Source: a virus (Duplodnaviria > Heunggongvirae > Uroviricota > Caudoviricetes). Taken from it: a stretch of DNA of 41,089 nucleotides. Under the pieces are notes generated by a model. It had not been told where the DNA came from and did not search any database. It was given only the letters and a program-made list of their open reading frames with translations. Within the stretch, counting starts at the first letter, position 1, and each line of letters opens with the position of its first letter. Made by a program: the position numbers and the translations under genes. Below, piece by piece: positions 1,772 to 34,893 of the stretch. Location of the stretch: the IMG/VR virus record IMGVR_UViG_2563366819_000008. The stretch is one strand, 5' to 3'.

Positions 1772-2397
1772 ACCGCCAGCACCTTACTGGCAGTGATGTA
1801 CCGCGCTCGCCGGTCGTCGATGCCGTTCCGGCCACCATTGATAATCAGAGTTACACGTGCAATATCGCCGGTATACTTCATGCATCCTTTGCTGGCGAAG
1901 AACCACGCCGCGCTACGAGCCGCATATTCGTCCTGCGCCAGCAGTTCAGGGCTCTCCAGCAGGTCAACCTTTAGACCGTTTCCGCAATCACGATAGTTAT
2001 TCAAACCGGTAATCTGGATAAGTCCGCGCCCTCGGTAATTCCAGCCATCACCAGGGGCATTGTTCCCCATGCGTTTGCTGTATACCAGATTTGCGATCGC
2101 GCGCTGGCGCTCAAGTGGCAATGGTGGTTCACCAGCACGGCGCCCCAGTGCATTAGCCTGCCCCTGAGTGAGACGCCCAGCCCGAACGAAGTTAGCCAGT
2201 CCGCTGACACTGTAGTTGAAATTCTCCTGCAACCTGGTGAAGCCCCCAGACTCATGCCCGACTTGAGCAATAAACATTGCCTGATCTTCTGCTTTGCTGA
2301 TACCAAACTCTTTCATCGCAGAAGTTATATGCGAGAACCAGCGTGCGGCCAGTGCCTCGCTGATACCAGCAGCTCGCTGGAATTGTTTAATCTCCAT
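1768..2397 (-). CDS. Endolysin, glycoside hydrolase family 19-like
   Basis: Motif [20 protein letters not shown] typical of GH19 phage lysozymes; start taken at internal MEIKQFQ (ATG at 2397), upstream ORF extension looks non-coding. Confidence 0.7.
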
Positions 2398-2695
2398 GTT
2401 TAGACCTCGATACTTTAAAAATTTGAACGACGTTACCGCGCGTTTTAATAACCGCAGCCAGCATGACAGCGTTGATAATGACCTCAGATAAATCCACAGC
2501 CATTGGCGTACGTAACCAGATTGCATAGGCGACTCGAACAGGAATACTGGCCGCAGCAACAATCAGGAAATAAGCAAGCCATCCTCCCCACCTTCGATGT
2601 TGAGAGCCGTTACGCCGGAATGTGACAACGCGAATTGCTATGCCAGTGCAAATAACTGCATTAGTGATAAGCAAAAAAAACTCATGCGTTACCAT
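2387..2695 (-). CDS. Small membrane protein, holin or antiholin candidate
   Basis: About 3 predicted TM helices; overlaps holin-like gene upstream and endolysin start downstream. Confidence 0.45.
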
Positions 2696-3086
2696 CGTCT
2701 TTTCTCCCCGGAATTAACTCGCGTGGATTATCGGAACGGTGATAGAGCCATATACCAATACGCACAGCGACAATTGCTGACACGAATGCGCCTGCAGAGA
2801 AAACAATCCCTTTTTCAAAAGAGTCCTGCGTGATGGTAGGGATCAGGCTGGCTATGCCGATAAGAATTGATGCTGCTGGTTTGTAAAAGAGAAGGCCGCA
2901 AAGAAAGCTGAGCATCGACAGGAGCACCCGGCGACGGATGGGGTACTCTACTGCAGAGGTAACAAAAATTACCGCCCCAGCCAAAGCCCCTAAAGCAACC
3001 TCCGGAGGGACACCTGCAATAACTGCAGCAAGAGAACCAAAACTAAGCAACTGATTTAATTGCTCACTTGTTACTTGAGCAGACAT
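2682..3086 (-). CDS. Holin-like multi-TM membrane protein
   Basis: 134 aa with 4-5 hydrophobic helices, first gene of the lysis cassette. Confidence 0.5.
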   Translation of the reverse strand: MSAQVTSEQLNQLLSFGSLAAVIAGVPPEVALGALAGAVIFVTSAVEYPIRRRVLLSMLSFLCGLLFYKPAASILIGIASLIPTITQDSFEKGIVFSAGAFVSAIVAVRIGIWLYHRSDNPRELIPGRKDDGNA

Positions 3087-3190
3087 ACTTTCTCCTGTTT
3101 ACTATCTATAAGCCAGTCAATTATTGATGACTAAACCCGCATAGTAAACCATATATGAATCATTATTGTTCCATATCATATATCTCAATA

Positions 3191-3216
3191 AAAGTACTAA
3201 TGAAAAGTACTAATGA
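3191..3216. repeat. Perfect tandem 13-bp direct repeat AAAGTACTAATGA x2
   Basis: Seen in the 320-bp non-coding gap between tailspike stop and holin start. Confidence 0.6.
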
Positions 3217-3405
3217 TTTTACAGAACGAGCCAGCAGAGTGGGGGCAGTTGTACAGGAACCATAGACTTAATTTTGTATTTAATAATGCTATGGTGTAAT
3301 AAACCTGAACATGTATTTAAAATACGTACTGATTCATGATAGAATTCAAAGATAACTTTTCACCAACTCCGTTTTTGATACCCGCAATATTTTGCGGGCT
3401 TTTTT

Positions 3406-6400
3406 TTAACGTTCTTCCAGAGACTGAACCCGCTCTTTTATCTTATCCATTTCTCTGCGCTGCCATGCTGCCTCGATATAGAATAAGAGATCAGGTCTGA
3501 CCCCCCATCTAGATCCTGCTGGCGTTATTTCAACGCGCTCAATGATGTCTTCTATTACCATCACTGGATTATCATCCTCATCAACAATGATGCTCCCGTC
3601 ATTATCAGTCAGCGGCATTTCCCTTTGGCCAGTAATGACGTCATCATATACTGCGGGATAATCGTCATAGCAAAGAAAGGCATAGCGGCATGTTGTGCTT
3701 TCTTCTTCCATGAGTCCGTGAGAAATAAGAACATCACGAAGTTGCTGCGCGATTACACCATGATGTATCCTCGCCCCTTCTTCCCCCTTTATAGCGACAG
3801 CGTTCAGCCATTTATAAGCGATATACCTGACGTCACCCCAGGCATCCAGCAATGCTTCGTCAGGAGAGACCGGCTCTGTCTTTAATGTTCCGTCACTGGT
3901 AACCACAGGATTGGAGCCAAGATAAACTGTCGAGAACCTGTTTCCCGGACCACCAAGAGCATTTACATTATCAAGATAAGGTTTAACATCTCCGTTCTCA
4001 AAAAGATGTTCGAGTGCGTTATATACCGCGCGACGTGGAGTACTGCTTCCGGAACCATGCAACGTTATCATTGCACCATCTGCTGAAGACGTTGTTTCAC
4101 CGCCGCTAACGATTAATCTCTGAGCGGTAACATCATCAGACGGTACTTTCTTCGCAATAATGGCGTAATTACCCTCAAGTTTGACTTCCGCGCGAACTTG
4201 TCCTGATGTACCTGCATGGACAGTCAGTGACTGGACGGCAACATCATCTGTGAAATCAACGGGTACAGGAACCGTCCTCACGCCTGACGTCGACATAAAA
4301 GTAGGAAGCGTTCTGTTAGGAGTGGCTCCGTAGACAAAATCCCTTGAAACAAATTCTTCCTGTTTAATTTTCACCCTGAAACAATACAAATCAGCCGGGT
4401 GACCATCGTGAACATAAGGATATTTTCTGTTGTTATCCCCTATGCTCCATGGGTTTAGAAAGTCTTCTCCACCGAAAATGTAGTACAGCCAGTTGTCTTT
4501 GATACAAACTGAACCAACACCAACCGCAGAGTTAACTATTCCGCCCTGATAAATCTGATCAGTAACATTAACCCACTCTACATTATCCAGACTCCACTCA
4601 TTGACGTTAACTCTGGTCATAAATGTTCTTGGATAATTTCCTGCATAACGGTTATCAGGCTCTCCTCCTTCCCACTCACCAAATGCGCGCTCACTGCCAA
4701 AAATAATCAGCTCATCGCCAACTTTGGCAAAAGGAAGGTTTGAGTGATGAACATTATTTGGGAAGCGAAGAGAATTCCATGATGTACCTAAATCAGAGCT
4801 TCTGTGCAATGAACTACCGGGTTGAGTACTTAATGTCCCCCTGGTCGTCAGATACAGAATGCCATCATAATATTTTACACATGGCTCAGATGCATTCGCC
4901 TCATATTCTGCAGGTATGCGTCTGCGAACAAAGCTACCAGGAGAACCGAAAGCATCAGAGAAATAGAGTATCCCAAGCTCGCGTGGACCAATATCACCAT
5001 TATGGTAGCCAACAGCAAAACTGTTATCGCTAATCGTCGCAAAACTGTGAATCTCAGTAACAGGAGTGCTTCCGTCAACAAAAGAAGGAATAGTTCCAAG
5101 ACTGGTTTTTCTCCATGGTGACGAGTGAAATGATGTACCAAAACTCCAGTATCTACCCTCGTTATTCTGATCCACATCCTGGGTATTTTGCGTCGTAACT
5201 GTAAAAGTATTTTTATCAATAACAGTAGTCACCGTCATATTCCCGGTAACACCTGTAACACCAGAGTTTGAGAAGTTGACAAAATCACCAGCAAATAATC
5301 CGTGATCAGTAATGCGAATATAAGCGACTTGCTGATTTGCTGCTTTCGTTATACCACCATAAACGCGAAGGCTGCGACTCATTGGGCGATCCCACAACTC
5401 TGCAACCTGCAGTTTATTTCCGCTCACGGTCCGCGTCTCAATTACAGCAAAAAGGCGATTTCTGACAACCCCCATACTCATGCAGTGATAGTTAACTGTG
5501 GGATAGTTTTCATGTAAATCTGTAAGCCATTCCGGCGTTGTCCAGGTCTTCCCGTCATCTCCTGAGCGAACCCATGCAACATGGAGGTTATTTACACCAT
5601 GGCGGTCTCCAGCCATAAAAGGCGCATAGATGACATTGTCATATACAAACGTTTTATCCTGCGTCCAGGCGTTGTACCACGGTGTATCTGTAATTTTAAA
5701 TAACTCTCCCTGGATAAAATCTTCAGAAGCATAAAAAAGAGGCTGGCCCGGTATTCTCTCAAATAAAAAACGAGCATTTTTAAATCGACTGACATCCGGA
5801 AGAGTTGATACTTTAAAAGTAAGCCCTAATCCGTCAATTTTATAACCTGGAGATGAGGCTTCAAGGCACGCGCTTATTGCAGTGGAGTCGTCATTTATAC
5901 CATCACCAACAGCTCCAAAATCTTTGGGGCTAATAGCATCACGCATTTTATCCTGGAACGTTCGGTACACAGCCCCAGAACCATACTGAATAAACCAACC
6001 AAAACCACCAACAACCCCGGCAATTGCAGCATCAACATAATTACGCATTGAGCGATTATTTACAGCGTCCTGCTCAAATGATGGATCTGCAAGGTTAGAA
6101 ATTTTGTTTTGCTTTGCATCGTAATATTTTGCAAGCAGAGAGGGCTTCATCAATGCACGTCTGAACCACCCAAAACATTGCTGGATCAGCATCGTCAGGT
6201 AGTCAAAGGCATCTTCATGCACTTCGGGGAAAAATTTTCCCTGATTGCGAAGGTCTGTCTCCTGCACTACATCAAGCACACGATCTATCGTAATTCGCCA
6301 TCCAGTAGCAAGCGGAGACGGAAGAACCACAGAACCGCCACTATAAGTGCCCGCCCCAGTTACCGTATAACCGGTATCCAGGACCAATTCTGTTACGTTC

Positions 6401-6525
6401 CCGTTCAGGTCAGACACCTGAACAACCAGGTCTGATTTTCTGAAAATTCGAAAAGTATACGGAAACGATGTCGTAACGCCGTTACCGGTGTATTCGTTGT
6501 GGTCAACTTCGGTTGAGACCGTCAT
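3406..6525 (-). CDS. Tailspike protein (1039 aa) with beta-helix glycosidase-like body and C-terminal intramolecular-chaperone domain
   Basis: N-terminal particle-binding type domain; DFGAVGDGINDDSTAI motif typical of pectate-lyase-fold tailspikes; C-terminal region resembling self-cleaving chaperone domains of endosialidase-type fibres. Confidence 0.8.
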   Translation of the reverse strand: MTVSTEVDHNEYTGNGVTTSFPYTFRIFRKSDLVVQVSDLNGNVTELVLDTGYTVTGAGTYSGGSVVLPSPLATGWRITIDRVLDVVQETDLRNQGKFFPEVHEDAFDYLTMLIQQCFGWFRRALMKPSLLAKYYDAKQNKISNLADPSFEQDAVNNRSMRNYVDAAIAGVVGGFGWFIQYGSGAVYRTFQDKMRDAISPKDFGAVGDGINDDSTAISACLEASSPGYKIDGLGLTFKVSTLPDVSRFKNARFLFERIPGQPLFYASEDFIQGELFKITDTPWYNAWTQDKTFVYDNVIYAPFMAGDRHGVNNLHVAWVRSGDDGKTWTTPEWLTDLHENYPTVNYHCMSMGVVRNRLFAVIETRTVSGNKLQVAELWDRPMSRSLRVYGGITKAANQQVAYIRITDHGLFAGDFVNFSNSGVTGVTGNMTVTTVIDKNTFTVTTQNTQDVDQNNEGRYWSFGTSFHSSPWRKTSLGTIPSFVDGSTPVTEIHSFATISDNSFAVGYHNGDIGPRELGILYFSDAFGSPGSFVRRRIPAEYEANASEPCVKYYDGILYLTTRGTLSTQPGSSLHRSSDLGTSWNSLRFPNNVHHSNLPFAKVGDELIIFGSERAFGEWEGGEPDNRYAGNYPRTFMTRVNVNEWSLDNVEWVNVTDQIYQGGIVNSAVGVGSVCIKDNWLYYIFGGEDFLNPWSIGDNNRKYPYVHDGHPADLYCFRVKIKQEEFVSRDFVYGATPNRTLPTFMSTSGVRTVPVPVDFTDDVAVQSLTVHAGTSGQVRAEVKLEGNYAIIAKKVPSDDVTAQRLIVSGGETTSSADGAMITLHGSGSSTPRRAVYNALEHLFENGDVKPYLDNVNALGGPGNRFSTVYLGSNPVVTSDGTLKTEPVSPDEALLDAWGDVRYIAYKWLNAVAIKGEEGARIHHGVIAQQLRDVLISHGLMEEESTTCRYAFLCYDDYPAVYDDVITGQREMPLTDNDGSIIVDEDDNPVMVIEDIIERVEITPAGSRWGVRPDLLFYIEAAWQRREMDKIKERVQSLEER

Positions 6526-6628
6526 GTTAAATCTCCAGATAGTCGCAGCACCCGTTGCGCCGCATATCTGGTTATTCTATTACCTGAAAAACCACATATG
6601 GATAAAAAGACTATAAATACCAATAGAT

Positions 6629-6645
6629 ATTACCTTTCGGGTAAT
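6629..6645. promoter_or_regulatory. Operator-like palindrome ATTACC-TTTCG-GGTAAT
   Basis: Perfect 6-bp inverted repeat with 5-bp spacer in the divergent region between tailspike and 6721 gene; same motif recurs 10 or more times. Confidence 0.6.
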
Positions 6646-6682
6646 TTGCAAAACGTGCTGGATAGCAAACAAATTATTTGTT

Positions 6683-6700
6683 ACTGTATAAACATACAGT
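6683..6700. promoter_or_regulatory. LexA (SOS) box TACTGTATAAACATACAGT
   Basis: CTGT-N8-ACAG with AT-rich centre, about 20 bp upstream of RBS ggagaag and ATG at 6721. Confidence 0.7.
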
Positions 6701-6720
6701 TATTGCATGGAGAAGATAAG

Positions 6721-6978
6721 ATGCAGCAGTATCACTATCCACTGGAAGACGGATTTACCGAAAGGATTCACACGCCGGGAGGCGTCAGGTCACTGGTGGA
6801 GGGATCGCACTTGATGAAATTACTCCGGGATCTCGATAAGGATGGATTTAATGTCGATGGCCCACTTGCCGAACTGACTGCACTGATTAACTACGTCACC
6901 AGCTCACAGATGTCTATGCAGGATCTGCAAACACATCTCGACTATTGTGCCGAACAATTACGAAAACAAACCAGATAA
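6721..6978 (+). CDS. Small SOS-controlled protein, paralogue of the C-terminal domain of the downstream antirepressor
   Basis: 85 aa; about 45 percent identical to the C-terminus of the 7296..7952 product (shared LAELT...DLQTH/DIQTH block); LexA box immediately upstream. Confidence 0.5.
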   Translation: MQQYHYPLEDGFTERIHTPGGVRSLVEGSHLMKLLRDLDKDGFNVDGPLAELTALINYVTSSQMSMQDLQTHLDYCAEQLRKQTR

Positions 6979-7008
6979 GGTTTGCAATTACCAAATGGAG
7001 TGCTTATA

Positions 7009-7025
7009 TTTACCTTTGCGGTAAA
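7009..7025. promoter_or_regulatory. Operator-like palindrome TTTACC-TTTGC-GGTAAA
   Basis: Same TTACC-N5-GGTAA motif. Confidence 0.55.
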
Positions 7026-7115
7026 TTTACATCGCACTCCTCTTGTGCCATAGTAATCGGGCACTGGCAAAATCCAGTGCCGGGATTGGTCTCCCGGATT
7101 ACTAAGTGGCGCATA

Positions 7116-7137
7116 CCACGCCAGACGTGGTTTTTTT
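7116..7137 (+). terminator. Intrinsic terminator (CCACG/CGTGG hairpin plus T7)
   Basis: ccacgccagacgtggttttttt; lies in the 270-bp leader between operator 7009 and ant start 7296. Confidence 0.5.
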
Positions 7138-7295
7138 ATGCGTATAGCACAGTCATGCCAGAATTATGGTGGGCTGAATGGGGGTCCGAAAGGACGCCGG
7201 TACCACTTAGGCCGGTAAGACCAACTCCGTTCAGTTCACCACCATCTGATTGGTCTCAGCGGTGGTGATGTAATTCGCTAAGTGGAGACGCCATC

Positions 7296-7952
7296 ATGAA
7301 CGCTCAACTCATCCCCGTATTCAACGGCACTATATCTAACGAAACAGCCCTACTTTGTAATGCCCGCGATCTGCACGCTTTTTTAGGTGTTAAAAAGGTG
7401 TTTGCAGCATGGATTACAAATCGCATATCAGAATACGAATTCATTGAAAATCAAGACTATATTTTGCTTTCCAATTTGGGAAAGCAAACATCTGGTAGAG
7501 GCGGCCACAACCGCAAAGAGTACCACCTCACCCTTGATACAGCCAAAGAGCTGGCGATGGTCGAGCGTAACGAAAAAGGTCGTCAGGTACGACGCTACTT
7601 CATTGAATGCGAGAAACGTTTAAGACAACAAGAAACAAAAGTGGAGAAGGTCTTGTCAGGCTTCATGCCCGCCATTATGGAGGCGATCAAGCTGGAAGAC
7701 AAAAAAGAATACAGTGCCCCGCTGAAGCCCGGCTACCGCAGCCTGATTCATTCGCCGTCTGGTGTTCTCGGCCTGACGGAGAACTCACTGCTGATGAATC
7801 TGCTGAACCAGTTACAGGAAGACGGGCACGACGTATCGGGCGCGGCGGCGGAGCTGACCACCATGTTCTGCTACATCGTCGGTGTGAGCAAATGCCTGCG
7901 TGATATCCAGACGCACGCGGAGTACATCAACGACAAGGCAGGGTTCTTCTGA
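7296..7952 (+). CDS. Antirepressor (AntA-like N-terminal domain)
   Basis: N-terminal LIPVFNG...[10 protein letters not shown]...[16 protein letters not shown] resembles AntA/Rha-type antirepressor domains; lies in an immI-like position next to tailspike. Confidence 0.6.
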
Positions 7953-8023
7953 CGGGCGGTGGCACAGGGATGTGCCTTTAAATAATTCTGTACAGATTGC
8001 AGACTGTGGGTGAATAGCGTACT

Positions 8024-8040
8024 ATTACCTTAAAGGTAAA
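8024..8040. promoter_or_regulatory. Operator-like palindrome ATTACC-TTAAA-GGTAAA abutting an RBS
   Basis: Motif followed immediately by ggaggcgcgat ATG (8052). Confidence 0.55.
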
Positions 8041-8051
8041 GGAGGCGCGAT

Positions 8052-8219
8052 ATGACAGCGTTGAAAAATCGTACTCAGCACAATGAACAAGCCAAGCAAT
8101 GCTGGGATGTCATTGGAAAAGTTATGCTTGGCCGCGCAAGCAAAGAGCGCGACAAGGATATGGTTTACCAGACAGGAACATCTTTCAGCGACTTCAAGGC
8201 GGCATTTCGCTCCAAATAG
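8052..8219 (+). CDS. Hypothetical small protein (55 aa)
   Basis: ATG with strong RBS aaaggagg; below the ORF-track size cutoff, translated by hand. Confidence 0.35.
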   Translation: MTALKNRTQHNEQAKQCWDVIGKVMLGRASKERDKDMVYQTGTSFSDFKAAFRSK

Positions 8220-8239
8220 AAGCACATCAGGAGTTTTCC

Positions 8240-8680
8240 TTGAAGTTTAACATTAGAATATCTAATAGTTTTCTACATGGGGAAAGCAACACCCCTTTCG
8301 CTGTAGACGGACCTTTCCTTACTGATGATGAAATAAAAATCATACAAAGTTTTTTAGAGGATGTTGCCAATGGAAGGGCGCTTGTTGGAAAAAACAAGCC
8401 CTCGTGGGTTGATGATAACCATGATAAAATTCCCGGCTCAGACAATTATGAGCAAGAGAATTATTGGCATTATCATTGTGGGCCAACATGGTATCCAAAC
8501 ACATTTAAGAATTATACCATTAACTTAAATTTCAACCCTGGCGGAAGGCATTCTAATGAATGCATTCATTATGCAAAAAATGATAATGAAATTGTCATTG
8601 TTGGATTTTCAAGAGAACACATACCTTTCCTTTCATCAGATGGAAACAACAATCCGCTTTTTAATGATGAAGAAGAATAG
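8240..8680 (+). CDS. Hypothetical protein, AT-rich, probable TTG start, no internal Met
   Basis: In-frame TTG at 8240 with RBS caggag 6 nt upstream; upstream part of the 8099 ORF overlaps the 55-aa gene and looks non-coding; terminator follows. Confidence 0.4.
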   Translation: MKFNIRISNSFLHGESNTPFAVDGPFLTDDEIKIIQSFLEDVANGRALVGKNKPSWVDDNHDKIPGSDNYEQENYWHYHCGPTWYPNTFKNYTINLNFNPGGRHSNECIHYAKNDNEIVIVGFSREHIPFLSSDGNNNPLFNDEEE

Positions 8681-8700
8681 CCCGCGCTGCGGGCTTTTTT
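8680..8700 (+). terminator. Intrinsic terminator (GCCCGC/GCGGGC hairpin plus T6)
   Basis: agcccgcgctgcgggctttttt right after the 8680 stop. Confidence 0.65.
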
Positions 8701-8772
8701 GTGGACGAAACAAAAGTCAGTGCTACACTCATTGACGCCACATTGAGGTGGCTTATAGATGGAAATTTCACA

Positions 8773-8934
8773 ATGAAAAAAGCATTTGCTGCACTGTTCG
8801 TTTTGTTGTCTCTGGTAGCTTCAACTCAGGCCTTTGCCGGTCGTTGTCAGCACGACAGCGATACTGCCGCTGACGGCTCCCGCTGCGGTGGGCGTTCTGC
8901 GGATTCCCGCCCGGGTGGCGGTGGCATTCGTTAA
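8773..8934 (+). CDS. Small secreted peptide (53 aa, about 31-aa mature part with 2 Cys)
   Basis: Start at internal MKKAFAALFVLLSLVASTQAFA signal peptide; Gly/Arg-rich C-terminus. Confidence 0.35.
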   Translation: MKKAFAALFVLLSLVASTQAFAGRCQHDSDTAADGSRCGGRSADSRPGGGGIR

Positions 8935-8940
8935 AAACAA

Positions 8941-8956
8941 GGCCGCGAAAGCGGCC
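8941..8956 (-). terminator. GNRA-type hairpin GGCCGC-GAAA-GCGGCC, with U-run on the minus strand
   Basis: On the minus strand it follows the lipoprotein stop and the 12-bp palindrome and is followed by TTGTTTTT. Confidence 0.5.
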
Positions 8957-8957
8957 T

Positions 8958-8969
8958 GTGACATGTCAC
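8958..8969. repeat. 12-bp perfect palindrome GTGACATGTCAC (copy 1 of 3)
   Basis: Contains the TGA stop of the 8966..9346 lipoprotein gene; adjacent to terminator hairpin. Confidence 0.8.
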
Positions 8970-9346
8970 GCAACGCAATTATTACCGCGCCATGTAACAT
9001 TTTTAATAATCTTATCAGCACCAAACTCAACGTAAACAGAGCAACTGAAATGGAGTGTATAACCGCCATCAGTTGTTGCGTATGTGTTTGAATATATAGT
9101 ATTACCAATTAGATTAGACGTAGTATTATACGTTGTGGTTTGTGGTACGTTATAACTACCAGAGCTTGAGTAAACATACACTCTGTTTCCATCTGGAGAT
9201 GTAAGCTCTCCCTGAGGATACCCCCACTGCTGAACCATTGCGTCTATACTCTGCCCGCGCCACGTAAGCATATTTCTTTCAAACTGTGCAGCTGACTGGC
9301 ATCCAACGAGAAGCATAAATCCAAAAATCAAAAATACTTTTCTCAT
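8966..9346 (-). CDS. Lipoprotein of unknown function (cargo gene; superinfection-exclusion candidate)
   Basis: Start at MRKVFLIFGFMLLVGC with lipobox; RBS agggg; Thr/Ser/Asn/Tyr-rich mature domain. Confidence 0.55.
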   Translation of the reverse strand: MRKVFLIFGFMLLVGCQSAAQFERNMLTWRGQSIDAMVQQWGYPQGELTSPDGNRVYVYSSSGSYNVPQTTTYNTTSNLIGNTIYSNTYATTDGGYTLHFSCSVYVEFGADKIIKNVTWRGNNCVA

Positions 9347-9431
9347 AATTACCCCTATCATGGAAAAACAGCACCAATCCACAAATTAACTAGTTATTTT
9401 ATTATTCTTCCGAACAATACAATTCCGAATA

Positions 9432-9557
9432 CTACAAAGCCGAACCATGCCGCTGCACGCAACAGAGATTCCAATTGAAACCCATTTTTATCAAAATGTA
9501 TGAATAGCATAAAAACGCTGCACATATTAGTACAATAAAAGTTATTTGAACCATCAT
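9432..9557 (-). CDS. Possible 41-aa hydrophobic membrane peptide
   Basis: ATGATG preceded by RBS ggaga; hand translation MMVQITFIVLICAAFLCYSYILIK...; competes with the 62-aa track ORF 9394..9582 in another frame. Confidence 0.3.
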   Translation of the reverse strand: MMVQITFIVLICAAFLCYSYILIKMGFNWNLCCVQRHGSAL

Positions 9558-9565
9558 ATCTCCTT

Positions 9566-12040
9566 TTATTGCGGAGTGACATCCTGTGGTCGCCACCAGT
9601 ATGTCTGGTTAAACTCTTTCTTCGAACGTTGCTCCATTTTACGCAAATAGCCTGGTGAAAAATACTCCTGCATCTGGTTAAAGATCATGTGATCGAGAGC
9701 CGCCTTCAAGTACCAGAGATTCGCACCAGGCATCAAACCTTTCCCCAGCTTCACCAGATCACCACCAGTCTGCTCACTCTTCCCTTCCACAGCATTTAAC
9801 GGTATGCCCTGAGCAATCTTCACTACGTCATCAACCAGACCAGCTACCGGGCCAAGCATCGACGCCAGCGCGCCGCTTCCGTACCTAGTGTGATCTGACA
9901 ATAAAAAGTCACCGTAAAGGCCAAGACCACCACCTTTCAGTAGAGCACCAAGCCAGAATTTTGCGGCATCTTCTCCTGTCATCTCTCGAGGATTACGACC
10001 AGACGCAAGGTCGTTAAGTTGCTGCGACAAAGCGCCAAGAATGGTCGTACTGGCAATAAACGTCGCAATATATGCCGCACGCCCACCAGCAGACGGCATA
10101 CCCATAGCGCGTGACCAGTGACGCATAACAACCGAGATAGGGAACGATTTAAACAGGAAAACACTTCTCGTTAATTCACCTTTCCATGTTCCACGCTGAA
10201 TACCAGAACCGGTTATCAGTTGCTCACGTGCTCCCGGTGTAATAACAGCCATATCAACTTCTTCAGTTACGGCACCGAGCAGTTTACGCATTGCCTCAAA
10301 TTTCACGCGTTCAGGCTCACCAAGATGTTTAACTGCTGAATCAGGGATACGCATAATGCTTTCCGGTGTCAGCATCGTATTATTACCGTTCCCCCAGTCC
10401 TCCTGTTTCGCCAGCTTCCATACGCTCCAGTCTGTGTCAGTAATCCCTTTGCTTTTCAGGATACGAAAATCAGAGTCATCGAGGCTACGAAGGTCTGGTG
10501 TCCGTGACACTACTTCTCCCAGGCTTCCCATCATGGTTACGCCATAGGCGCGCTTGTGCGCATCTGACCATGCTGTAAGCCCACTGGCACGCATTACCGC
10601 CGTTGCCGCCCAACGAGACACTGACGGCCCCATATTATCCATCGCCCAGCGGTTAACGCTGCCAAGTAGAGATTCCATCGCCAGACCAGCGCGGCGCGCC
10701 CGCGCAAGTTCTGTACGGTTCGTTGGGTCCATAGCTTCAAGCTGGTTGCGGAATAACTGGTTCATTGGAAGGTTGGTAACCTTCGCAGACAGATACATGG
10801 TTCCAAGATCAGAGAACGATGACAGCAACGCGGATCCGAGTCTGCTGGCAACCAGCCAGTTGCGGATATTGTCAGACCATCGCGCGATGTGCGGATTCGC
10901 TACAGGCTGTGTCTTTCCGGAAATAAAGTTGTACAGATTCTCTGTGTTGTTCGCCAGCCGCTCGACTTTACCGGTTTTACTCGGGTTAGCTGTTGCCGTT
11001 TCTGCCTTCACCTGATCAAGAAGAGAGCGGAAAACATGATCGGGGTTTGGGCCATATGTTTCCACCAGTGCAATATCTTTACTGATACCTTCCAGGTGAC
11101 AGACCATGATTTCCCATAGAGAGCGATCGCCATAAAGTTGCTGATATTGCAGATAGGAATCTGCATCTTTGAAATGTATCTGTCGTGATGCATTACCACG
11201 GTTAGCACGTGCGCCGGAAATTCGCATTCCGGTATCAGTAAGCTTATTCAGCCCACCAGTAGCGATCGTGTTATAAGCCTCTCCAAGAAATGAAGACAAC
11301 TCGGCATCGTTCATCAGTTGTCCATCGGCTCGGATATAATATTTGCGATCCAGCTTACCTATAACATCGCTAACCCACTTATCCTTTGATACTGCCCCAA
11401 CCTTTTCCATAGAATGATGTTGAGGGATCCCCCAGTTTTCGAGATAGCCAATGTCCCCACCAGCATCATTAAACCGGCGGCGCAGCAGCTCTGTAACTTC
11501 TCTCCACGCCTTAGCACCGTTTCTTGCTTTAGCATTGCCAGTATTTTGCCCCCGCATTTCATATACCAGGTCACGTACGCCCGCTTCATCTTCAAACAGA
11601 CCAAAAAAGCGAGGATCAACTGCTTCGAATGCCTCCTGCAATTGACTCAATGCATAATCACGGGTGGCTTTTGTTCTGGATTCAACAGAGAGGAAATTAG
11701 ATTTACCGTCTGCATTAAAAGCTATAGTACGGTTAAGAGCGCCAAGTTTCCCATCAGCCCCTTGATAGCTATTGATAAATTTATCCAATCTCTGACGCGC
11801 GGCTATAGTGAGAGCCACACGACGTTTATTTAATGCCGCTTCTCGCTGTAATTCTTCAGATGCCAATTGTGCTGCTCGATATAGCCGCTCTGATTCGGAA
11901 AGTTGTCGCCACGACATAGTGTCATCACGAGCAATGGAGCGCATATTTCGATAAATGCGGTCTTCAATGTTCTGTATTTCTCGCGCCGTTAACATGCGCT
12001 GCGCCGCCTGCTGAACCGCTTGTATACATTCCTGTCTCAT
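9566..12040 (-). CDS. Internal virion (core/ejection) protein, 824 aa
   Basis: One of four consecutive structural ORFs between tail tubular genes and the accessory island, as in podoviruses; no motif recognised. Confidence 0.5.
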   Translation of the reverse strand: MRQECIQAVQQAAQRMLTAREIQNIEDRIYRNMRSIARDDTMSWRQLSESERLYRAAQLASEELQREAALNKRRVALTIAARQRLDKFINSYQGADGKLGALNRTIAFNADGKSNFLSVESRTKATRDYALSQLQEAFEAVDPRFFGLFEDEAGVRDLVYEMRGQNTGNAKARNGAKAWREVTELLRRRFNDAGGDIGYLENWGIPQHHSMEKVGAVSKDKWVSDVIGKLDRKYYIRADGQLMNDAELSSFLGEAYNTIATGGLNKLTDTGMRISGARANRGNASRQIHFKDADSYLQYQQLYGDRSLWEIMVCHLEGISKDIALVETYGPNPDHVFRSLLDQVKAETATANPSKTGKVERLANNTENLYNFISGKTQPVANPHIARWSDNIRNWLVASRLGSALLSSFSDLGTMYLSAKVTNLPMNQLFRNQLEAMDPTNRTELARARRAGLAMESLLGSVNRWAMDNMGPSVSRWAATAVMRASGLTAWSDAHKRAYGVTMMGSLGEVVSRTPDLRSLDDSDFRILKSKGITDTDWSVWKLAKQEDWGNGNNTMLTPESIMRIPDSAVKHLGEPERVKFEAMRKLLGAVTEEVDMAVITPGAREQLITGSGIQRGTWKGELTRSVFLFKSFPISVVMRHWSRAMGMPSAGGRAAYIATFIASTTILGALSQQLNDLASGRNPREMTGEDAAKFWLGALLKGGGLGLYGDFLLSDHTRYGSGALASMLGPVAGLVDDVVKIAQGIPLNAVEGKSEQTGGDLVKLGKGLMPGANLWYLKAALDHMIFNQMQEYFSPGYLRKMEQRSKKEFNQTYWWRPQDVTPQ

Positions 12041-21607: not shown

Positions 21608-21658
21608 CTTCTTTCTCCATTAGTGGGCCTGTTGCGGCCCACAGGTTAATAACAGGCG

Positions 21659-25978: not shown

Positions 25979-26055
25979 GTGGCATTAGCTCAGTCGGACA
26001 GAGCAACCGCCTTCTAAGCGGTTGGTCGCAGGTTCGAATCCTGCATGCCACGCCA
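25979..26055 (+). tRNA. tRNA-Arg, anticodon UCU (reads AGA)
   Basis: Acceptor stem GTGGCAT/ATGCCAC, D arm GCTC/GAGC, anticodon stem ACCGC/GCGGT with loop CTTCTAA, T arm GCAGG-TTCGAAT-CCTGC, 3' GCCA; similar but not identical to host argU. Confidence 0.85.
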
Positions 26056-26140: not shown

Positions 26141-26218
26141 ACAGCAGGACGCCATTGCGATGACTTCATGCTGTAAACCAGTACAGCCACGGAAGGCATA
26201 ACTCATTGCTTCCAGTTC

Positions 26219-34308: not shown

Positions 34309-34893
34309 ATGAAAAGTATCCAGGACGTCCGCAGGCAAAATCTCAACGACTTGATCGACCGTGAATTCAATGGTGTTCAGACGCGGATGGCAGAAAAACT
34401 TGGAACTCAGGCAAATCTGGTAAACCGCTGGGCTCTTGGCAAGAAGGTTATCGGCGACCAGGTTGCACGAAAAATTGAAGCTGCCGCCAATAAACCCCGT
34501 AACTGGCTTGATATCGATCGCTCGCTTTCTCAGGAAGGTTTTCAGCCTGTCGGCCCAAGCGACATTGGCCAGCTGGCGGCTCACAACCTGGAACGCTGGA
34601 TGAGCGAAAGCCGCGACCTTTCAACACAGGGAAAACTTCACCGCGCATCCGGCGTAGCCCAGGTGACAATCAGCCGCCTGTTAAACAATGAGGTCAGCGT
34701 TTCCATTTCCACCCTGGAGAATGTTGCATCCGCATTCGGGCGTCACGGCTATGAATTACTGATTCACCCGCACGACCCTGCGACCATCAACTATGATCGC
34801 TCGCGCTACGCATTGTTACCCGAAACCGAGAAAGCAAAGATCGAAAGTTACATTGAATTTGTCATCAACCAGAACGAAAAAAACAAACAATAA
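34309..34893 (+). CDS. Repressor-position protein with two tandem HTH domains and no LexA-like autopeptidase domain
   Basis: Two HTH_XRE-like segments (QTRMAEKLGTQANLVNRW and HRASGVAQVTISRLL); divergent from cro; own terminator. Confidence 0.55.
   Translation: MKSIQDVRRQNLNDLIDREFNGVQTRMAEKLGTQANLVNRWALGKKVIGDQVARKIEAAANKPRNWLDIDRSLSQEGFQPVGPSDIGQLAAHNLERWMSESRDLSTQGKLHRASGVAQVTISRLLNNEVSVSISTLENVASAFGRHGYELLIHPHDPATINYDRSRYALLPETEKAKIESYIEFVINQNEKNKQ

What the first reader, a model, noticed from the sequence alone, without database searches (positions are those of the whole stretch)
6526..9565. immI-like accessory island placed between the internal virion genes and the tailspike
About 3 kb of mostly plus-strand genes with their own operators and terminators sits inside the minus-strand structural operon: the SOS-controlled ant paralogue, antirepressor, a 55-aa protein, an AT-rich TTG-start protein, a secreted peptide, and on the minus strand a lipoprotein and a hydrophobic peptide. 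The placement mirrors the P22 immI region next to the tailspike gene, but the content is largely unrecognised.
Basis: partly seen in the sequence, partly recalled or inferred. Interest (0 to 1): 0.6.

Follow-up and report, generated by a model that had tools for sequence, protein, structure and literature searches.

The report
Prophage antirepressor switch plus cargo cassettes
This 3-kb stretch is the induction-control region of an epsilon15-like E. coli prophage: a known SOS-triggered antirepressor, a second antirepressor gated by a P1-type antisense RNA, and a few swappable cargo genes, so it is a well-assembled example of known parts and not a new kind of system.

Summary
The features are real and at the stated coordinates. 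The window is an epsilon15/phiV10-like (Uetakevirus) prophage with a K1 endosialidase tailspike. Between the tailspike start (6525) and the gp17-like internal protein stop (9566) there are five units.

1. ant (6721-6978) is the orthologue of the SPC32H antirepressor (PDB 5D50). A conserved LexA box precedes it.
2. A P1-immI / Gifsy-1 isrK-type module. It has an isrK-like leader (7061-7137) and a C4 antisense RNA (7162-7246). Two C4 loop segments are complementary to targets in the leader and to targets over the ribosome-binding site of the next gene (7296-7952). That gene encodes an AntA domain fused to an Ant-like C-terminal domain.
3. A 55-aa gene followed by a TTG-start, AT-rich 146-aa gene. 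The 146-aa product has a RelE/YafQ-like fold and matches no annotated family.
4. A 53-aa signal-peptide protein.
5. On the minus strand, a BamE/BLIP-like lipoprotein and a small membrane peptide.

A palindrome, TTACC-N5-GGTAA, is the inferred Rep operator. It sits on the promoter of each of the three plus-strand units.

Across 81 related islands only ant is constant. The rest is shuffled at operator and terminator boundaries.

The RNA-gated part is P1-type, not P22-type, and most of the content is recognisable. Interest is moderate to low.

The parts
6630..6644 (.). Palindrome TTACCTTTCGGGTAA, the inferred Rep operator. It ends 1 nt before the -35 of the ant promoter.
   Evidence: 13 sites in the window against 0.67 expected. 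(exact copy at a fixed distance upstream of ant in 64 of 80 copies). (same arrangement in SPC32H).
6646..6674 (+). Inferred ant promoter: -35 TTGCAA at 6646-6651 and -10 ACAAAT at 6669-6674.
   Evidence: Read from the sequence by alignment with the SPC32H ant upstream region, TTGCAT-N17-TGATAT. Inference only; the consensus scan did not flag it.
6682..6701 (.). LexA box TACTGTATAAACATACAGTT.
   Evidence: Conserved in 79 of 80 ant copies, 21-22 nt before the ATG.
6721..6978 (+). ant: 85-aa small antirepressor, orthologue of SPC32H Ant.
   Evidence: PDB 5d50_E, E 4e-47 over residues 2-84. phrog_450. Present in all 81 islands.
6982..7010 (+). Promoter-like site TTGCAA-N17-TATATT for the RNA-gated antirepressor module.
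7010..7024 (.). Palindrome TTACCTTTGCGGTAA, the inferred Rep operator, directly after the -10.
7061..7137 (+). isrK-like leader/sRNA. It carries the upstream targets of C4 (TTGGTCT 7086-7092, CTAAGTGG 7102-7109) and an intrinsic terminator (7115-7137).
   Evidence: Rfam RF01394, 67.7 bits against gathering 50. RF03163 c4-a1b1, 39.9 bits, below its gathering score of 46.7. Terminator. Complementarity.
7162..7246 (+). C4 antisense RNA with two pairing segments: CCACTTAG at 7203-7210 and AGACCAA at 7218-7224.
   Evidence: Rfam RF01695, 61.2 bits against gathering 45. Six stem pairs with compensatory changes among 8 variants. Fold z-score -5.3 for 7015-7300.
7250..7285 (+). Downstream C4 targets: TTGGTCT at 7250-7256 and CTAAGTGG at 7278-7285. 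The second overlaps the Shine-Dalgarno GGAG (7283-7286) of the gene starting at 7296.
   Evidence: In 83 C4 copies (9 allele combinations) the downstream targets are always complementary, 7-9 nt and 7-8 nt. Cross-allele means are 4.9 and 4.5 nt.
7296..7952 (+). Large antirepressor: N-terminal AntA domain fused to a C-terminal Ant-like domain (residues 137-213, nt 7704-7934).
   Evidence: Pfam AntA 4e-26. 5d50_E E 5e-14 on residues 137-213. phrog_377. Mosaic junction at about 7677.
7997..8039 (+). Inferred promoter TTGCAG-N17-TACTAT (7997-8025) with palindrome TTACCTTAAAGGTAA (8025-8039) overlapping the -10 by 1 nt.
   Evidence: Sequence.. The same palindrome precedes every plus-strand cargo type in relatives. 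Mosaic breakpoints pile up at 8030-8049.
8052..8219 (+). 55-aa partner protein, candidate antitoxin.
   Evidence: phrog_8607. A homologue sits directly upstream of the 146-aa homologue in Serratia, and as the C-terminal part of a 95-102 aa protein in Klebsiella.
8240..8680 (+). 146-aa RelE/YafQ-fold protein, TTG start, GC about 0.37.
8679..8695 (.). Terminator-like hairpin flagged on both strands (clear T run on the plus strand only), closing the cargo cassette.
   Evidence: Mosaic breakpoints at 8650-8679.
8773..8934 (+). 53-aa protein with a signal peptide (named 'transmembrane anchored protein' in databases). No palindrome upstream.
   Evidence: phrog_14503. Source names. Present in 33 of 81 islands.
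8940..8957 (-). Terminator-like hairpin (flagged on the minus strand) between the convergent 53-aa gene and the lipoprotein gene.
   Evidence: Breakpoints at 8950-8979.
8966..9346 (-). 126-aa lipoprotein with a BamE/BLIP/OsmE-like fold and a conserved Cys102-Cys124 pair.
9394..9582 (-). Small two-helix membrane peptide directly after the gp17-like gene. An overlapping alternative frame, 9432-9557, has the stronger Shine-Dalgarno.
   Evidence: The 62-aa frame resembles the 57-aa peptide at the same position in other islands (z 7.4). The other frame does not. An equivalent 46-aa gene exists in phiV10 and SPC32H.

Best explanation
The stretch is the anti-immunity region and cargo hotspot of an epsilon15-like prophage. 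It is built from self-contained cassettes.

Step 1, shown by homology. ant encodes the SPC32H-type small antirepressor. LexA holds it off, and the phage repressor Rep probably does too. DNA damage removes LexA, Ant is made, and Ant takes apart the Rep tetramer.

Step 2, inferred. Loss of Rep opens every promoter that carries the TTACC-N5-GGTAA palindrome, including two more promoters inside this stretch.

Step 3, shown by Rfam models, base complementarity and covariation. The first of those promoters drives a P1-immI / Gifsy-1 isrK-type unit. A C4 antisense RNA pairs with two sites, one of which covers the ribosome-binding site of a large antirepressor (AntA domain plus Ant-like domain). The short isrK-like leader carries copies of the same two sites. 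By analogy with Gifsy-1 IsrK, I infer that the leader titrates or displaces C4 so that the large antirepressor is translated only once transcription is strong. That would give a delayed, reinforcing second hit on Rep-type repressors.

Step 4, inferred. The second promoter drives a two-gene cargo: a 55-aa protein and a RelE-fold protein, most likely a toxin-antitoxin-like pair.

Step 5, inferred. The 53-aa secreted peptide, the lipoprotein and the membrane peptide have no palindrome upstream. They are candidates for expression in the lysogen, for example in superinfection exclusion.
For: Ant, Rep and LexA.
- Ant matches 5d50_E at E 4e-47.
- Rep (34309-34893) matches 5d50_A at E 4e-42.
- The LexA box is present and conserved in 79 of 80 copies.
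- SPC32H has the same ant position in a minimal island.
- Published function of Ant, Rep and LexA: PMC7380047, PMC9638917, PMC9986798.

Palindrome as operator.
- There are 13 sites against 0.67 expected.
- Three lie between rep and the divergent cro-like gene, and two flank the promoter downstream of rep.
- SPC32H shows the same distribution.
- The palindrome overlaps the -10/+1 of predicted promoters.

RNA module.
- isrK and C4 both score above their Rfam gathering thresholds.
- Both C4 segments have perfect complements in the leader and over the Shine-Dalgarno.
- All 83 C4 copies, in 9 allele combinations, keep matching targets.
- The stem shows compensatory changes.
- P1 logic is described in PMC8198154 and PMC12197685. 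IsrK given in trans activates anrP translation about 140-fold (PMC4825925). The same isrK + C4 pair upstream of a Bro-N gene is reported in APSE phages (PMC7313666).

Large antirepressor.
- It has an AntA domain and an Ant-like C-terminal domain.
- Every large antirepressor type in the islands carries that C-terminal domain.
- Overexpressing the Bro-N version in phage ZX5 lowers lysogeny (PMC9782041).

Cargo. RelE-type fold and a conserved upstream partner.

Cassette nature..
Against: - No experiment on this phage was available. The papers that define the SPC32H Rep operator and the ant promoter are not in the held library, so calling the palindrome the Rep operator rests on its distribution alone.
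- The -10 of the inferred ant promoter is weak (ACAAAT).
- The icd/orf45-type upstream ORF is not coupled here. In P1 and Gifsy-1 its translation is coupled to the antirepressor. Here the 37-codon ORF 7155-7268 ends 28 nt before the ATG.
- The same palindrome precedes the RelE-like cassette in a Klebsiella lambdoid prophage, in the nin region. The repressor of that phage was not examined.
- The 55-aa protein has no recognisable DNA-binding domain. The cassette lacks the autoregulation typical of type II toxin-antitoxin pairs.
- No PADLOC match exists for any cargo.
Confidence: 0.78

Rival explanations
1. This is a P22-immI-like accessory island whose genes, mostly of unknown kind, mainly set superinfection immunity. 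The LexA-controlled gene would be only a spare paralogue of the 'real' antirepressor.
For: The position next to the tailspike gene matches P22. Some relatives carry arc, a P22-type ant and sar RNA at this place. The region is variable and not structural.
Against: The window has no Arc or Mnt and no sar RNA. The LexA-controlled gene is the orthologue of the characterised switch protein and is the only invariant gene. The RNA control is C4/isrK type. Most of the content is assignable.
Confidence: 0.08
2. The region is chiefly a defence or competition hotspot. The large antirepressor acts on repressors of other resident or invading phages (prophage cross-talk). The RelE-fold pair is an abortive-infection or stabilisation module. 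Neither contributes to this prophage's own induction, which needs only ant.
For: SPC32H and three IMG/VR relatives have ant alone, so the rest is dispensable. The N-terminal AntA domain is shared at about 91% DNA identity with antirepressors of lambdoid Stx phages. Cargo types include YafO toxins, DUF4760 and DUF2335. Cross-acting antirepressors are documented in Salmonella (PMC7380047).
Against: The C-terminal domain of every large antirepressor is the Ant-like, Rep-binding type, which points at Rep-family targets, the phage's own Rep included. Each cassette carries the phage's own palindrome. No known defence family matches. This reading overlaps with the best explanation and does not exclude it.
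Confidence: 0.25
3. TTACC-N5-GGTAA is not the Rep operator. It is the site of another regulator (the Cro-like protein or a host factor), or it is mainly a conserved junction sequence at which cassettes recombine.
For: Mosaic breakpoints pile up exactly at the 8025-8039 palindrome. Identical palindrome variants precede unrelated cargo. The palindrome travels with the RelE-like cassette into a Klebsiella lambdoid prophage and a Serratia prophage.
Against: The sites cluster in threes and pairs around rep in two phages whose Rep proteins have clearly similar N-terminal DNA-binding regions. They sit on -10/+1 positions of promoters. A recombination role and an operator role are compatible.
Confidence: 0.15

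Closest known systems
Salmonella phage SPC32H antirepression system (Ant, Rep, host LexA; PDB 5D50 and 5D4Z)
   Same: Ant is near-identical: E 4e-47, with 83 aligned residues that are mostly identical. Rep is homologous over its full length. A LexA box lies just upstream of ant. ant occupies the same slot between the gp17-like gene (plus a small membrane peptide gene) and the tailspike gene. The same palindrome surrounds rep and precedes ant.
   Different: SPC32H has only ant and the membrane peptide gene in this slot. The window adds an RNA-gated large antirepressor, a RelE-fold pair, a secreted peptide and a lipoprotein. Rep is markedly more diverged than Ant (E 4e-42 over 190 residues, many substitutions).
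Phage P1/P7 immI operon (c4 - icd - ant1/2)
   Same: A C4 RNA scores above the Rfam threshold. Two pairing segments each have an upstream and a downstream target, and one downstream target covers a ribosome-binding site. An antirepressor gene follows. The operon promoter carries a site for the primary repressor (inferred here). Allelic loop/target variants are analogous to P1/P7 heteroimmunity (PMC8198154, PMC12197685).
   Different: There is no coupled icd-like gene; the target covers the antirepressor's own Shine-Dalgarno. The antirepressor has an AntA domain plus an SPC32H-type Ant domain. The host phage is a podovirus prophage, not a plasmid myovirus.
Gifsy-1 isrK - orf45 - anrP locus
   Same: An isrK match above threshold with its terminator, then a conserved non-coding-like stretch, then an antirepressor-like gene. 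Short and read-through isoforms are expected (PMC4825925).
   Different: In Gifsy-1 the orf45 stop overlaps the anrP start, and the output is the AntQ antiterminator. Here the small ORF is uncoupled, and the stretch between isrK and the gene is a clear C4 RNA.
APSE phages of Hamiltonella (isrK + C4 upstream of a Bro-N gene)
   Same: The same pair of RNAs precedes a Bro-N or AntA-type gene in a temperate podovirus, with a'/b' segments matching the upstream region of that gene (PMC7313666).
   Different: The phage lineage is different. No LexA-controlled small Ant was reported next to it.
Phage P22 immI (mnt - arc - ant - sar) with sieA next to gene 9
   Same: Antirepressor genes and membrane proteins sit between the ejection-protein genes and the tailspike gene. 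Relatives such as TL-2011b carry an arc-ant-sar unit at this place.
   Different: The window has no Arc, Mnt or sar.
RelE/ParE-superfamily type II toxins (RelE, YafQ, YoeB, HigB)
   Different: The protein is about 55 residues longer, with an N-terminal extension. It has no sequence-family membership. The promoter carries a phage palindrome and not an antitoxin-specific operator.

Membership tests
SPC32H-type LexA-controlled small antirepressor (Ant) | Sequence homology to SPC32H Ant | tested here: met
   5d50_E, E 4e-47, residues 2-84 aligned.
SPC32H-type LexA-controlled small antirepressor (Ant) | LexA box at the ant promoter | tested here: met
   TACTGTATAAACATACAGTT at 6682-6701. Conserved in 79 of 80 copies.
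SPC32H-type LexA-controlled small antirepressor (Ant) | Cognate non-cleavable Rep with a C-terminal Ant-binding tetramerisation domain | tested here: met
   34309-34893 matches 5d50_A at E 4e-42 over residues 1-190, C-terminal domain included. Non-cleavability was not tested.
SPC32H-type LexA-controlled small antirepressor (Ant) | Ant binds Rep and breaks up its tetramer | not testable with these tools
   Needs biochemistry. Known for SPC32H (PMC9638917).
P1/P7 immI (C4 antisense control of ant) | C4 RNA with the family's structure | tested here: met
   RF01695, 61.2 bits against gathering 45. Compensatory stem changes.
P1/P7 immI (C4 antisense control of ant) | Two C4 segments complementary to an upstream and a downstream target pair, with a downstream target on a ribosome-binding site | tested here: met
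   Covariation over 83 copies and 9 allele combinations.
P1/P7 immI (C4 antisense control of ant) | icd-like ORF translationally coupled to ant | tested here: not met
   The only candidate ORF (7155-7268) ends 28 nt before ATG 7296.
P1/P7 immI (C4 antisense control of ant) | Operon promoter under the primary repressor | tested here: inconclusive
   The palindrome at 7010-7024 abuts the -10. Its binding protein is inferred, not shown.
Gifsy-1 isrK locus | isrK RNA with a Rho-independent terminator upstream of an antirepressor-like gene | tested here: met
   RF01394, 67.7 bits against gathering 50. Terminator at 7115-7137.
Gifsy-1 isrK locus | orf45 whose stop overlaps the start of the antirepressor gene | tested here: not met
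   as above.
P22 immI | Arc/Mnt ribbon-helix-helix repressors and sar antisense RNA | tested here: not met
   No such Pfam hits. No RF00262 hit in the window. Present in relative L003.
RelE/ParE-superfamily toxin | RelE-type fold | tested here: met
RelE/ParE-superfamily toxin | Match to a curated sequence family | tested here: not met
   No hit in Pfam, NCBIfam or PADLOC. Remote members also have none.
RelE/ParE-superfamily toxin | Toxicity neutralised by the upstream gene product | not testable with these tools
   Only the conserved gene pairing was seen.
YafO toxin family | Profile similarity to the YafO-type cargo found at the same slot in relatives | tested here: not met
   hhalign probability 0.1. 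BLASTP found nothing. The relatives' cargo does hit PF13957: one type passes the gathering score and the other falls below it.
BamE/SmpA_OmlA-BLIP-like lipoproteins | Lipobox plus the alpha-alpha-beta fold | tested here: met

The most novel reading that the evidence does not exclude
Every plus-strand cassette of this hotspot is wired to the prophage master repressor through a portable palindrome. If so, any loss of Rep would fire an exchangeable set of effectors at once. Rep could be lost through SOS via Ant, or through an antirepressor brought in by an invading phage. In this window the effectors would be a RelE-fold toxin and an RNA-gated second antirepressor. That makes a repressor-guarded commitment or abortive-infection device, with the IsrK-like leader acting as a sponge for C4 and so setting a threshold. 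The RelE-fold family would then be a new toxin family.
Probability: 0.15. Interest if true: 0.6.

Novelty: new member of a known kind. Interest (0 to 1): 0.35.

Why it matters
- It gives a complete, testable wiring diagram for induction of a widespread group of E. coli K1/ExPEC and APEC prophages. The order is LexA, then Ant, then Rep, then an RNA-gated second antirepressor.
- The isrK and C4 Rfam families are neighbouring parts of one P1-type module here. The reviews I could read treat them separately.
- The module comes in at least nine loop/target specificities.
- It flags an unannotated RelE-fold family and a set of cassettes delimited by operator and terminator. These would be convenient for studying how prophage cargo is exchanged.
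- None of this changes a general principle.

Tried and rejected
- YafO membership of the 146-aa protein was rejected. BLASTP and hhalign against the YafO-type cargo of relatives found nothing.
- Known defence systems were rejected. There are no PADLOC hits for the window's proteins or for ten alternative cargo and membrane proteins.
- NCBIfam gave nothing useful.
- P22-type immI was rejected for this window.
- A structural role was rejected because of the variability.
- Three papers are not in the held library: Kim & Ryu 2013, Kim et al. 2016 and Kropinski et al. 2007. The published Rep operator and ant promoter could therefore not be compared. My recollection of a 17-bp ATTACC...GGTAAT repeat reported for epsilon15 is unverified.
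- blastn-short recovered only the identical C4 allele. Two regular expressions failed before the working one (then 86).
- A divergent tailspike promoter sharing the 6630 palindrome was considered. The hexamers are too weak to claim it.
- The frame of the small membrane peptide stays ambiguous.

Full report
**What the window is.** The 41-kb window is an epsilon15/phiV10-like (Uetakevirus) prophage.
- Its closest phage record is Escherichia phage phiv142-3, which matches 6400-8970 at 99.2%.
- The gene left of the finding (3406-6525, minus) is a tailspike with the complete K1 endosialidase domain set.
- The gene on the right (9566-12040, minus) is the homologue of phiV10 p20 / epsilon15 gp17, a virion internal protein.
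- Rep, a cro-like gene and an integrase lie elsewhere in the window.

**Check of the observation.**
- The ORFs are: 85 aa (6721-6978), 218 aa (7296-7952), 55 aa (8052-8219), a TTG-start 146-aa ORF behind AGGAG (8240-8680), a 53-aa signal-peptide ORF (8773-8934), a minus-strand lipoprotein (8966-9346) and a hydrophobic small ORF beside the gp17-like stop.
- A strong LexA box lies at 6682-6701. CTGT-N8-ACAG occurs 3 times in the window against 0.53 expected.
- Terminator-like hairpins lie at 7115-7131, 8679-8695 and 8940-8957.
- GC falls to 0.37-0.40 over the 146-aa gene and over the minus-strand genes.
TTACC-N5-GGTAA occurs at 6630, 7010 and 8025, and 13 times in the window against 0.67 expected.

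**Unit 1, ant.**
- The 85-aa product aligns with SPC32H Ant (PDB 5d50, chain E) over 83 residues at E 4e-47.
- The window's Rep (34309-34893) aligns with SPC32H Rep over its full length at E 4e-42.
- In SPC32H, Rep is not cleaved after DNA damage. It is inactivated by Ant, whose synthesis LexA represses. Ant is a tetramer that splits the Rep tetramer (summaries in PMC7380047 and PMC9638917; the primary papers were not available).
- In SPC32H the slot between the gp17-like gene and the tailspike gene holds only a 46-aa membrane peptide gene and ant.
- In 80 IMG/VR loci with 99-100% identical Ant, ant is the only gene present in every island.
- The LexA box is kept in 79 of 80 copies at a fixed distance.
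- So this gene is the core lytic-switch gene of the group. It is not a spare paralogue.

**The palindrome.**
- Besides the three island copies, it lies three times between rep and the divergent cro-like gene (34191, 34222, 34239).
- It lies on both sides of a TTGACA promoter just downstream of rep (34951, 35013).
- It also lies upstream of the replication, terminase and portal gene blocks.
- SPC32H shows the same pattern, including a copy abutting the -35 of ant.
- At 7010, 8025 and 35013 it starts at the last base of a -10-like hexamer.
- I therefore take it as the operator of Rep, and possibly also of the Cro-like protein. This is an inference from distribution. No binding data were accessible.

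**Unit 2, the RNA-gated antirepressor.** The 317-bp "intergenic" stretch 6979-7295 is not empty.
- Rfam finds isrK (7061-7137, 67.7 bits, gathering 50) and the C4 antisense RNA (7162-7246, 61.2 bits, gathering 45).
- Just below threshold it also finds the c4-a1b1 target motif (7048-7100).
- The stretch folds far better than shuffles (z = -5.3).
- C4 has two exposed segments, CCACTTAG and AGACCAA.
- Each segment has a perfect complement inside the isrK-like leader (7102-7109 and 7086-7092).
- Each also has one downstream (7278-7285 and 7250-7256). The first downstream site overlaps the GGAG of the gene starting at 7296.
- Among 83 C4 copies in 75 sources there are nine allele combinations: five loop and three segment specificities. 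In all of them the downstream targets stay complementary. Cross-allele complementarity is at background.
- The closing stem shows six pairs with compensatory changes.
- This is the logic of the P1/P7 immI operon. There the primary repressor and the C4 RNA together keep ant off, and loop differences make P1 and P7 heteroimmune (PMC8198154, PMC12197685).
- It is also the Gifsy-1 isrK-orf45-anrP locus. There the short IsrK, given in trans, raises anrP translation about 140-fold (PMC4825925).
- The same RNA pair in front of a Bro-N gene was noted in APSE phages (PMC7313666). The module occurs in many enterobacterial phages.
- One family feature is not met: there is no translationally coupled icd/orf45. 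The 37-codon ORF 7155-7268 ends 28 nt before the ATG.

**The large antirepressor.**
- The 218-aa product has an N-terminal AntA domain. Its DNA is about 91% identical to antirepressor genes of lambdoid Stx phages.
- Its C-terminal 77 residues are a paralogue of Ant (E 5e-14 to 5d50_E).
- All four large antirepressor types found in the islands carry this C-terminal domain: Bro-N, AntA, a third type, and the P22-like Ant next to arc and sar.
- A sharp mosaic junction lies at its start, near 7677.
- Overexpressing the Bro-N version of phage ZX5 reduced lysogeny (PMC9782041).
- The likely target is therefore a Rep-family repressor.

**Unit 3, the AT-rich pair.**
- The 146-aa protein has no hit in Pfam, NCBIfam or PADLOC. 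It belongs to phrog_5954.
- Its family is small: 34 clusters in one search and 122 representatives among 1.84 billion proteins.
- Remote members also lack Pfam domains.
- The AlphaFold model is confident (pLDDT 92).
- Invariant residues include GKNK, WHYHCG, H110/Y111, S124 and H127.
- The 55-aa gene travels with it. A 57-aa homologue lies directly upstream in a Serratia prophage island. The motif forms the C-terminus of the upstream protein in Klebsiella lambdoid prophages.
- The TTG start is also kept in Serratia.
- It is not detectably related to the YafO toxins that fill the same slot in relatives.
- A toxin-antitoxin-like pair is the most likely reading. That reading rests on fold and gene order only.

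**Units 4 and 5.**
- The 53-aa protein is common in E. coli prophages and carries only a placeholder name, "transmembrane anchored protein".
- The lipoprotein family is enterobacterial and has no Pfam domain.
- Its model (pLDDT 85) resembles BamE, OsmE, BLIP-like inhibitors and a T6SS immunity protein.
- The small membrane peptide has two candidate frames. Homology to the peptide of other islands favours 9394-9582. The Shine-Dalgarno favours 9432-9557.
- None of these three has the palindrome upstream. That fits expression in the lysogen, but it was not tested.
- A role in superinfection exclusion is a guess from location and envelope targeting.

**The island as a whole.**
- In 81 islands the length runs from 645 bp to more than 6 kb. 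Only one locus (L049) shares the window's architecture.
- Among 5,426 complete E. coli genomes, 895 have some match and 18 have at least 80% of the stretch.
- Every plus-strand cargo type is preceded by the palindrome. The types are the 55+146 pair, two YafO types, DUF4760, DUF2335 and several unknowns.
- Similarity breakpoints pile up at these places:
  - the ant stop (6970-6979);
  - just before the large antirepressor start (7260-7289);
  - the start of the Ant-like domain (7670-7679);
  - the palindrome (8030-8049);
  - the terminators (8650-8679 and 8950-8979).
- The region is thus an array of promoter/operator-to-terminator cassettes.

**Comparison and verdict.**
- The nearest known systems are SPC32H Ant/Rep/LexA (membership met), the P1 immI / Gifsy-1 isrK / APSE RNA module (core features met, coupling ORF not met) and RelE-superfamily toxins (fold only).
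- P22 immI is a positional analogue only.
- The parts are known. What I did not find described in the papers I could read:
  - the tandem arrangement;
  - the shared Ant-like domain of all large antirepressors;
  - the nine C4 specificities;
  - the palindrome-led cassettes;
  - the RelE-fold family.
- These are increments within known kinds.
- I rate it a new member of a known kind, interest about 0.35.

Noticed in passing
window 3406-6525 (-): The tailspike joins an epsilon15-type N-terminal adaptor (first 110 residues 72-100% identical across relatives) to a complete K1 endosialidase (End_N_terminal, beta-propeller, beta-barrel, End_tail_spike, Peptidase_S74 chaperone). So this is a K1-capsule-specific epsilon15-like prophage. 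phiv142-3 has a different, shorter fibre after the shared N-terminus.
   Followed up: partly
window 25642, 28788, 28806, 31853, 31915, 33854, 34191, 34222, 34239, 34951, 35013: The TTACC-N5-GGTAA palindrome also precedes the portal, terminase and replication gene blocks. That suggests one regulator touches nearly every transcription unit of the phage, late genes included. Spacings between paired sites are 17-18, 31, 48 and 62 bp.
   Followed up: partly
L003 (TL-2011b) 6596-7780; L016; L011; L040: Some relatives stack several antirepressor systems in the same hotspot. TL-2011b has a P22-type arc-ant pair with a sar RNA hit (RF00262). L016 has three isrK/C4 modules, and L011 and L040 have two in opposite orientation. 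In one L016 copy the upstream (leader) target does not match its C4 segment, which looks like a recombinant.
   Followed up: partly
L085-L088 (Klebsiella) 2391-3486; L089 (Serratia) 2755-3450: The RelE-fold cassette occurs in the nin region of Klebsiella lambdoid prophages and in a Serratia prophage island. Each time a TTACC-N5-GGTAA palindrome lies upstream, so the palindrome moves with the cassette across phage types.
   Followed up: partly
L089 5497-5584 (-): An sRNA-Xcc1 (RF02221) hit lies near a second Bro-N gene in the Serratia island. APSE phages of whitefly symbionts have the same RNA upstream of an ORF6N gene (PMC7313666). It may be an alternative RNA gate for antirepressor-like genes.
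   Followed up: no
window 7140-7295 compared with the Gifsy-1 isrK locus (PMC4825925): In this window the stretch between isrK and the antirepressor gene is a C4 RNA. The Gifsy-1 paper describes the equivalent stretch as 'orf45', with conserved nucleotides but a variable amino-acid sequence, and 'phage P1' does not occur in its text. The two literatures may describe one system. I did not scan Gifsy-1 itself.
   Followed up: no
window 26171-26186 and 21629-21644: Two further CTGT-N8-ACAG matches occur (CTGTAAACCAGTACAG, CTGTTGCGGCCCACAG). Their centres are not AT-rich and they may be chance. The first lies near the tRNA gene at 25979-26052.
   Followed up: no
window 6526-6650 (-): The island separates the tailspike gene from the rest of the minus-strand late genes by 3 kb and by minus-strand terminator-like hairpins (8940-8957, 8679-8695). 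The tailspike needs either its own promoter in 6526-6650 or read-through antisense to the island. I found no convincing promoter hexamers there.
   Followed up: partly
window 9394-9582 and 9432-9557 (-): Two overlapping hydrophobic ORFs lie in different frames. One is supported by similarity to peptides of other islands and the other by a strong AAGGAG-N5-ATG.
   Followed up: partly
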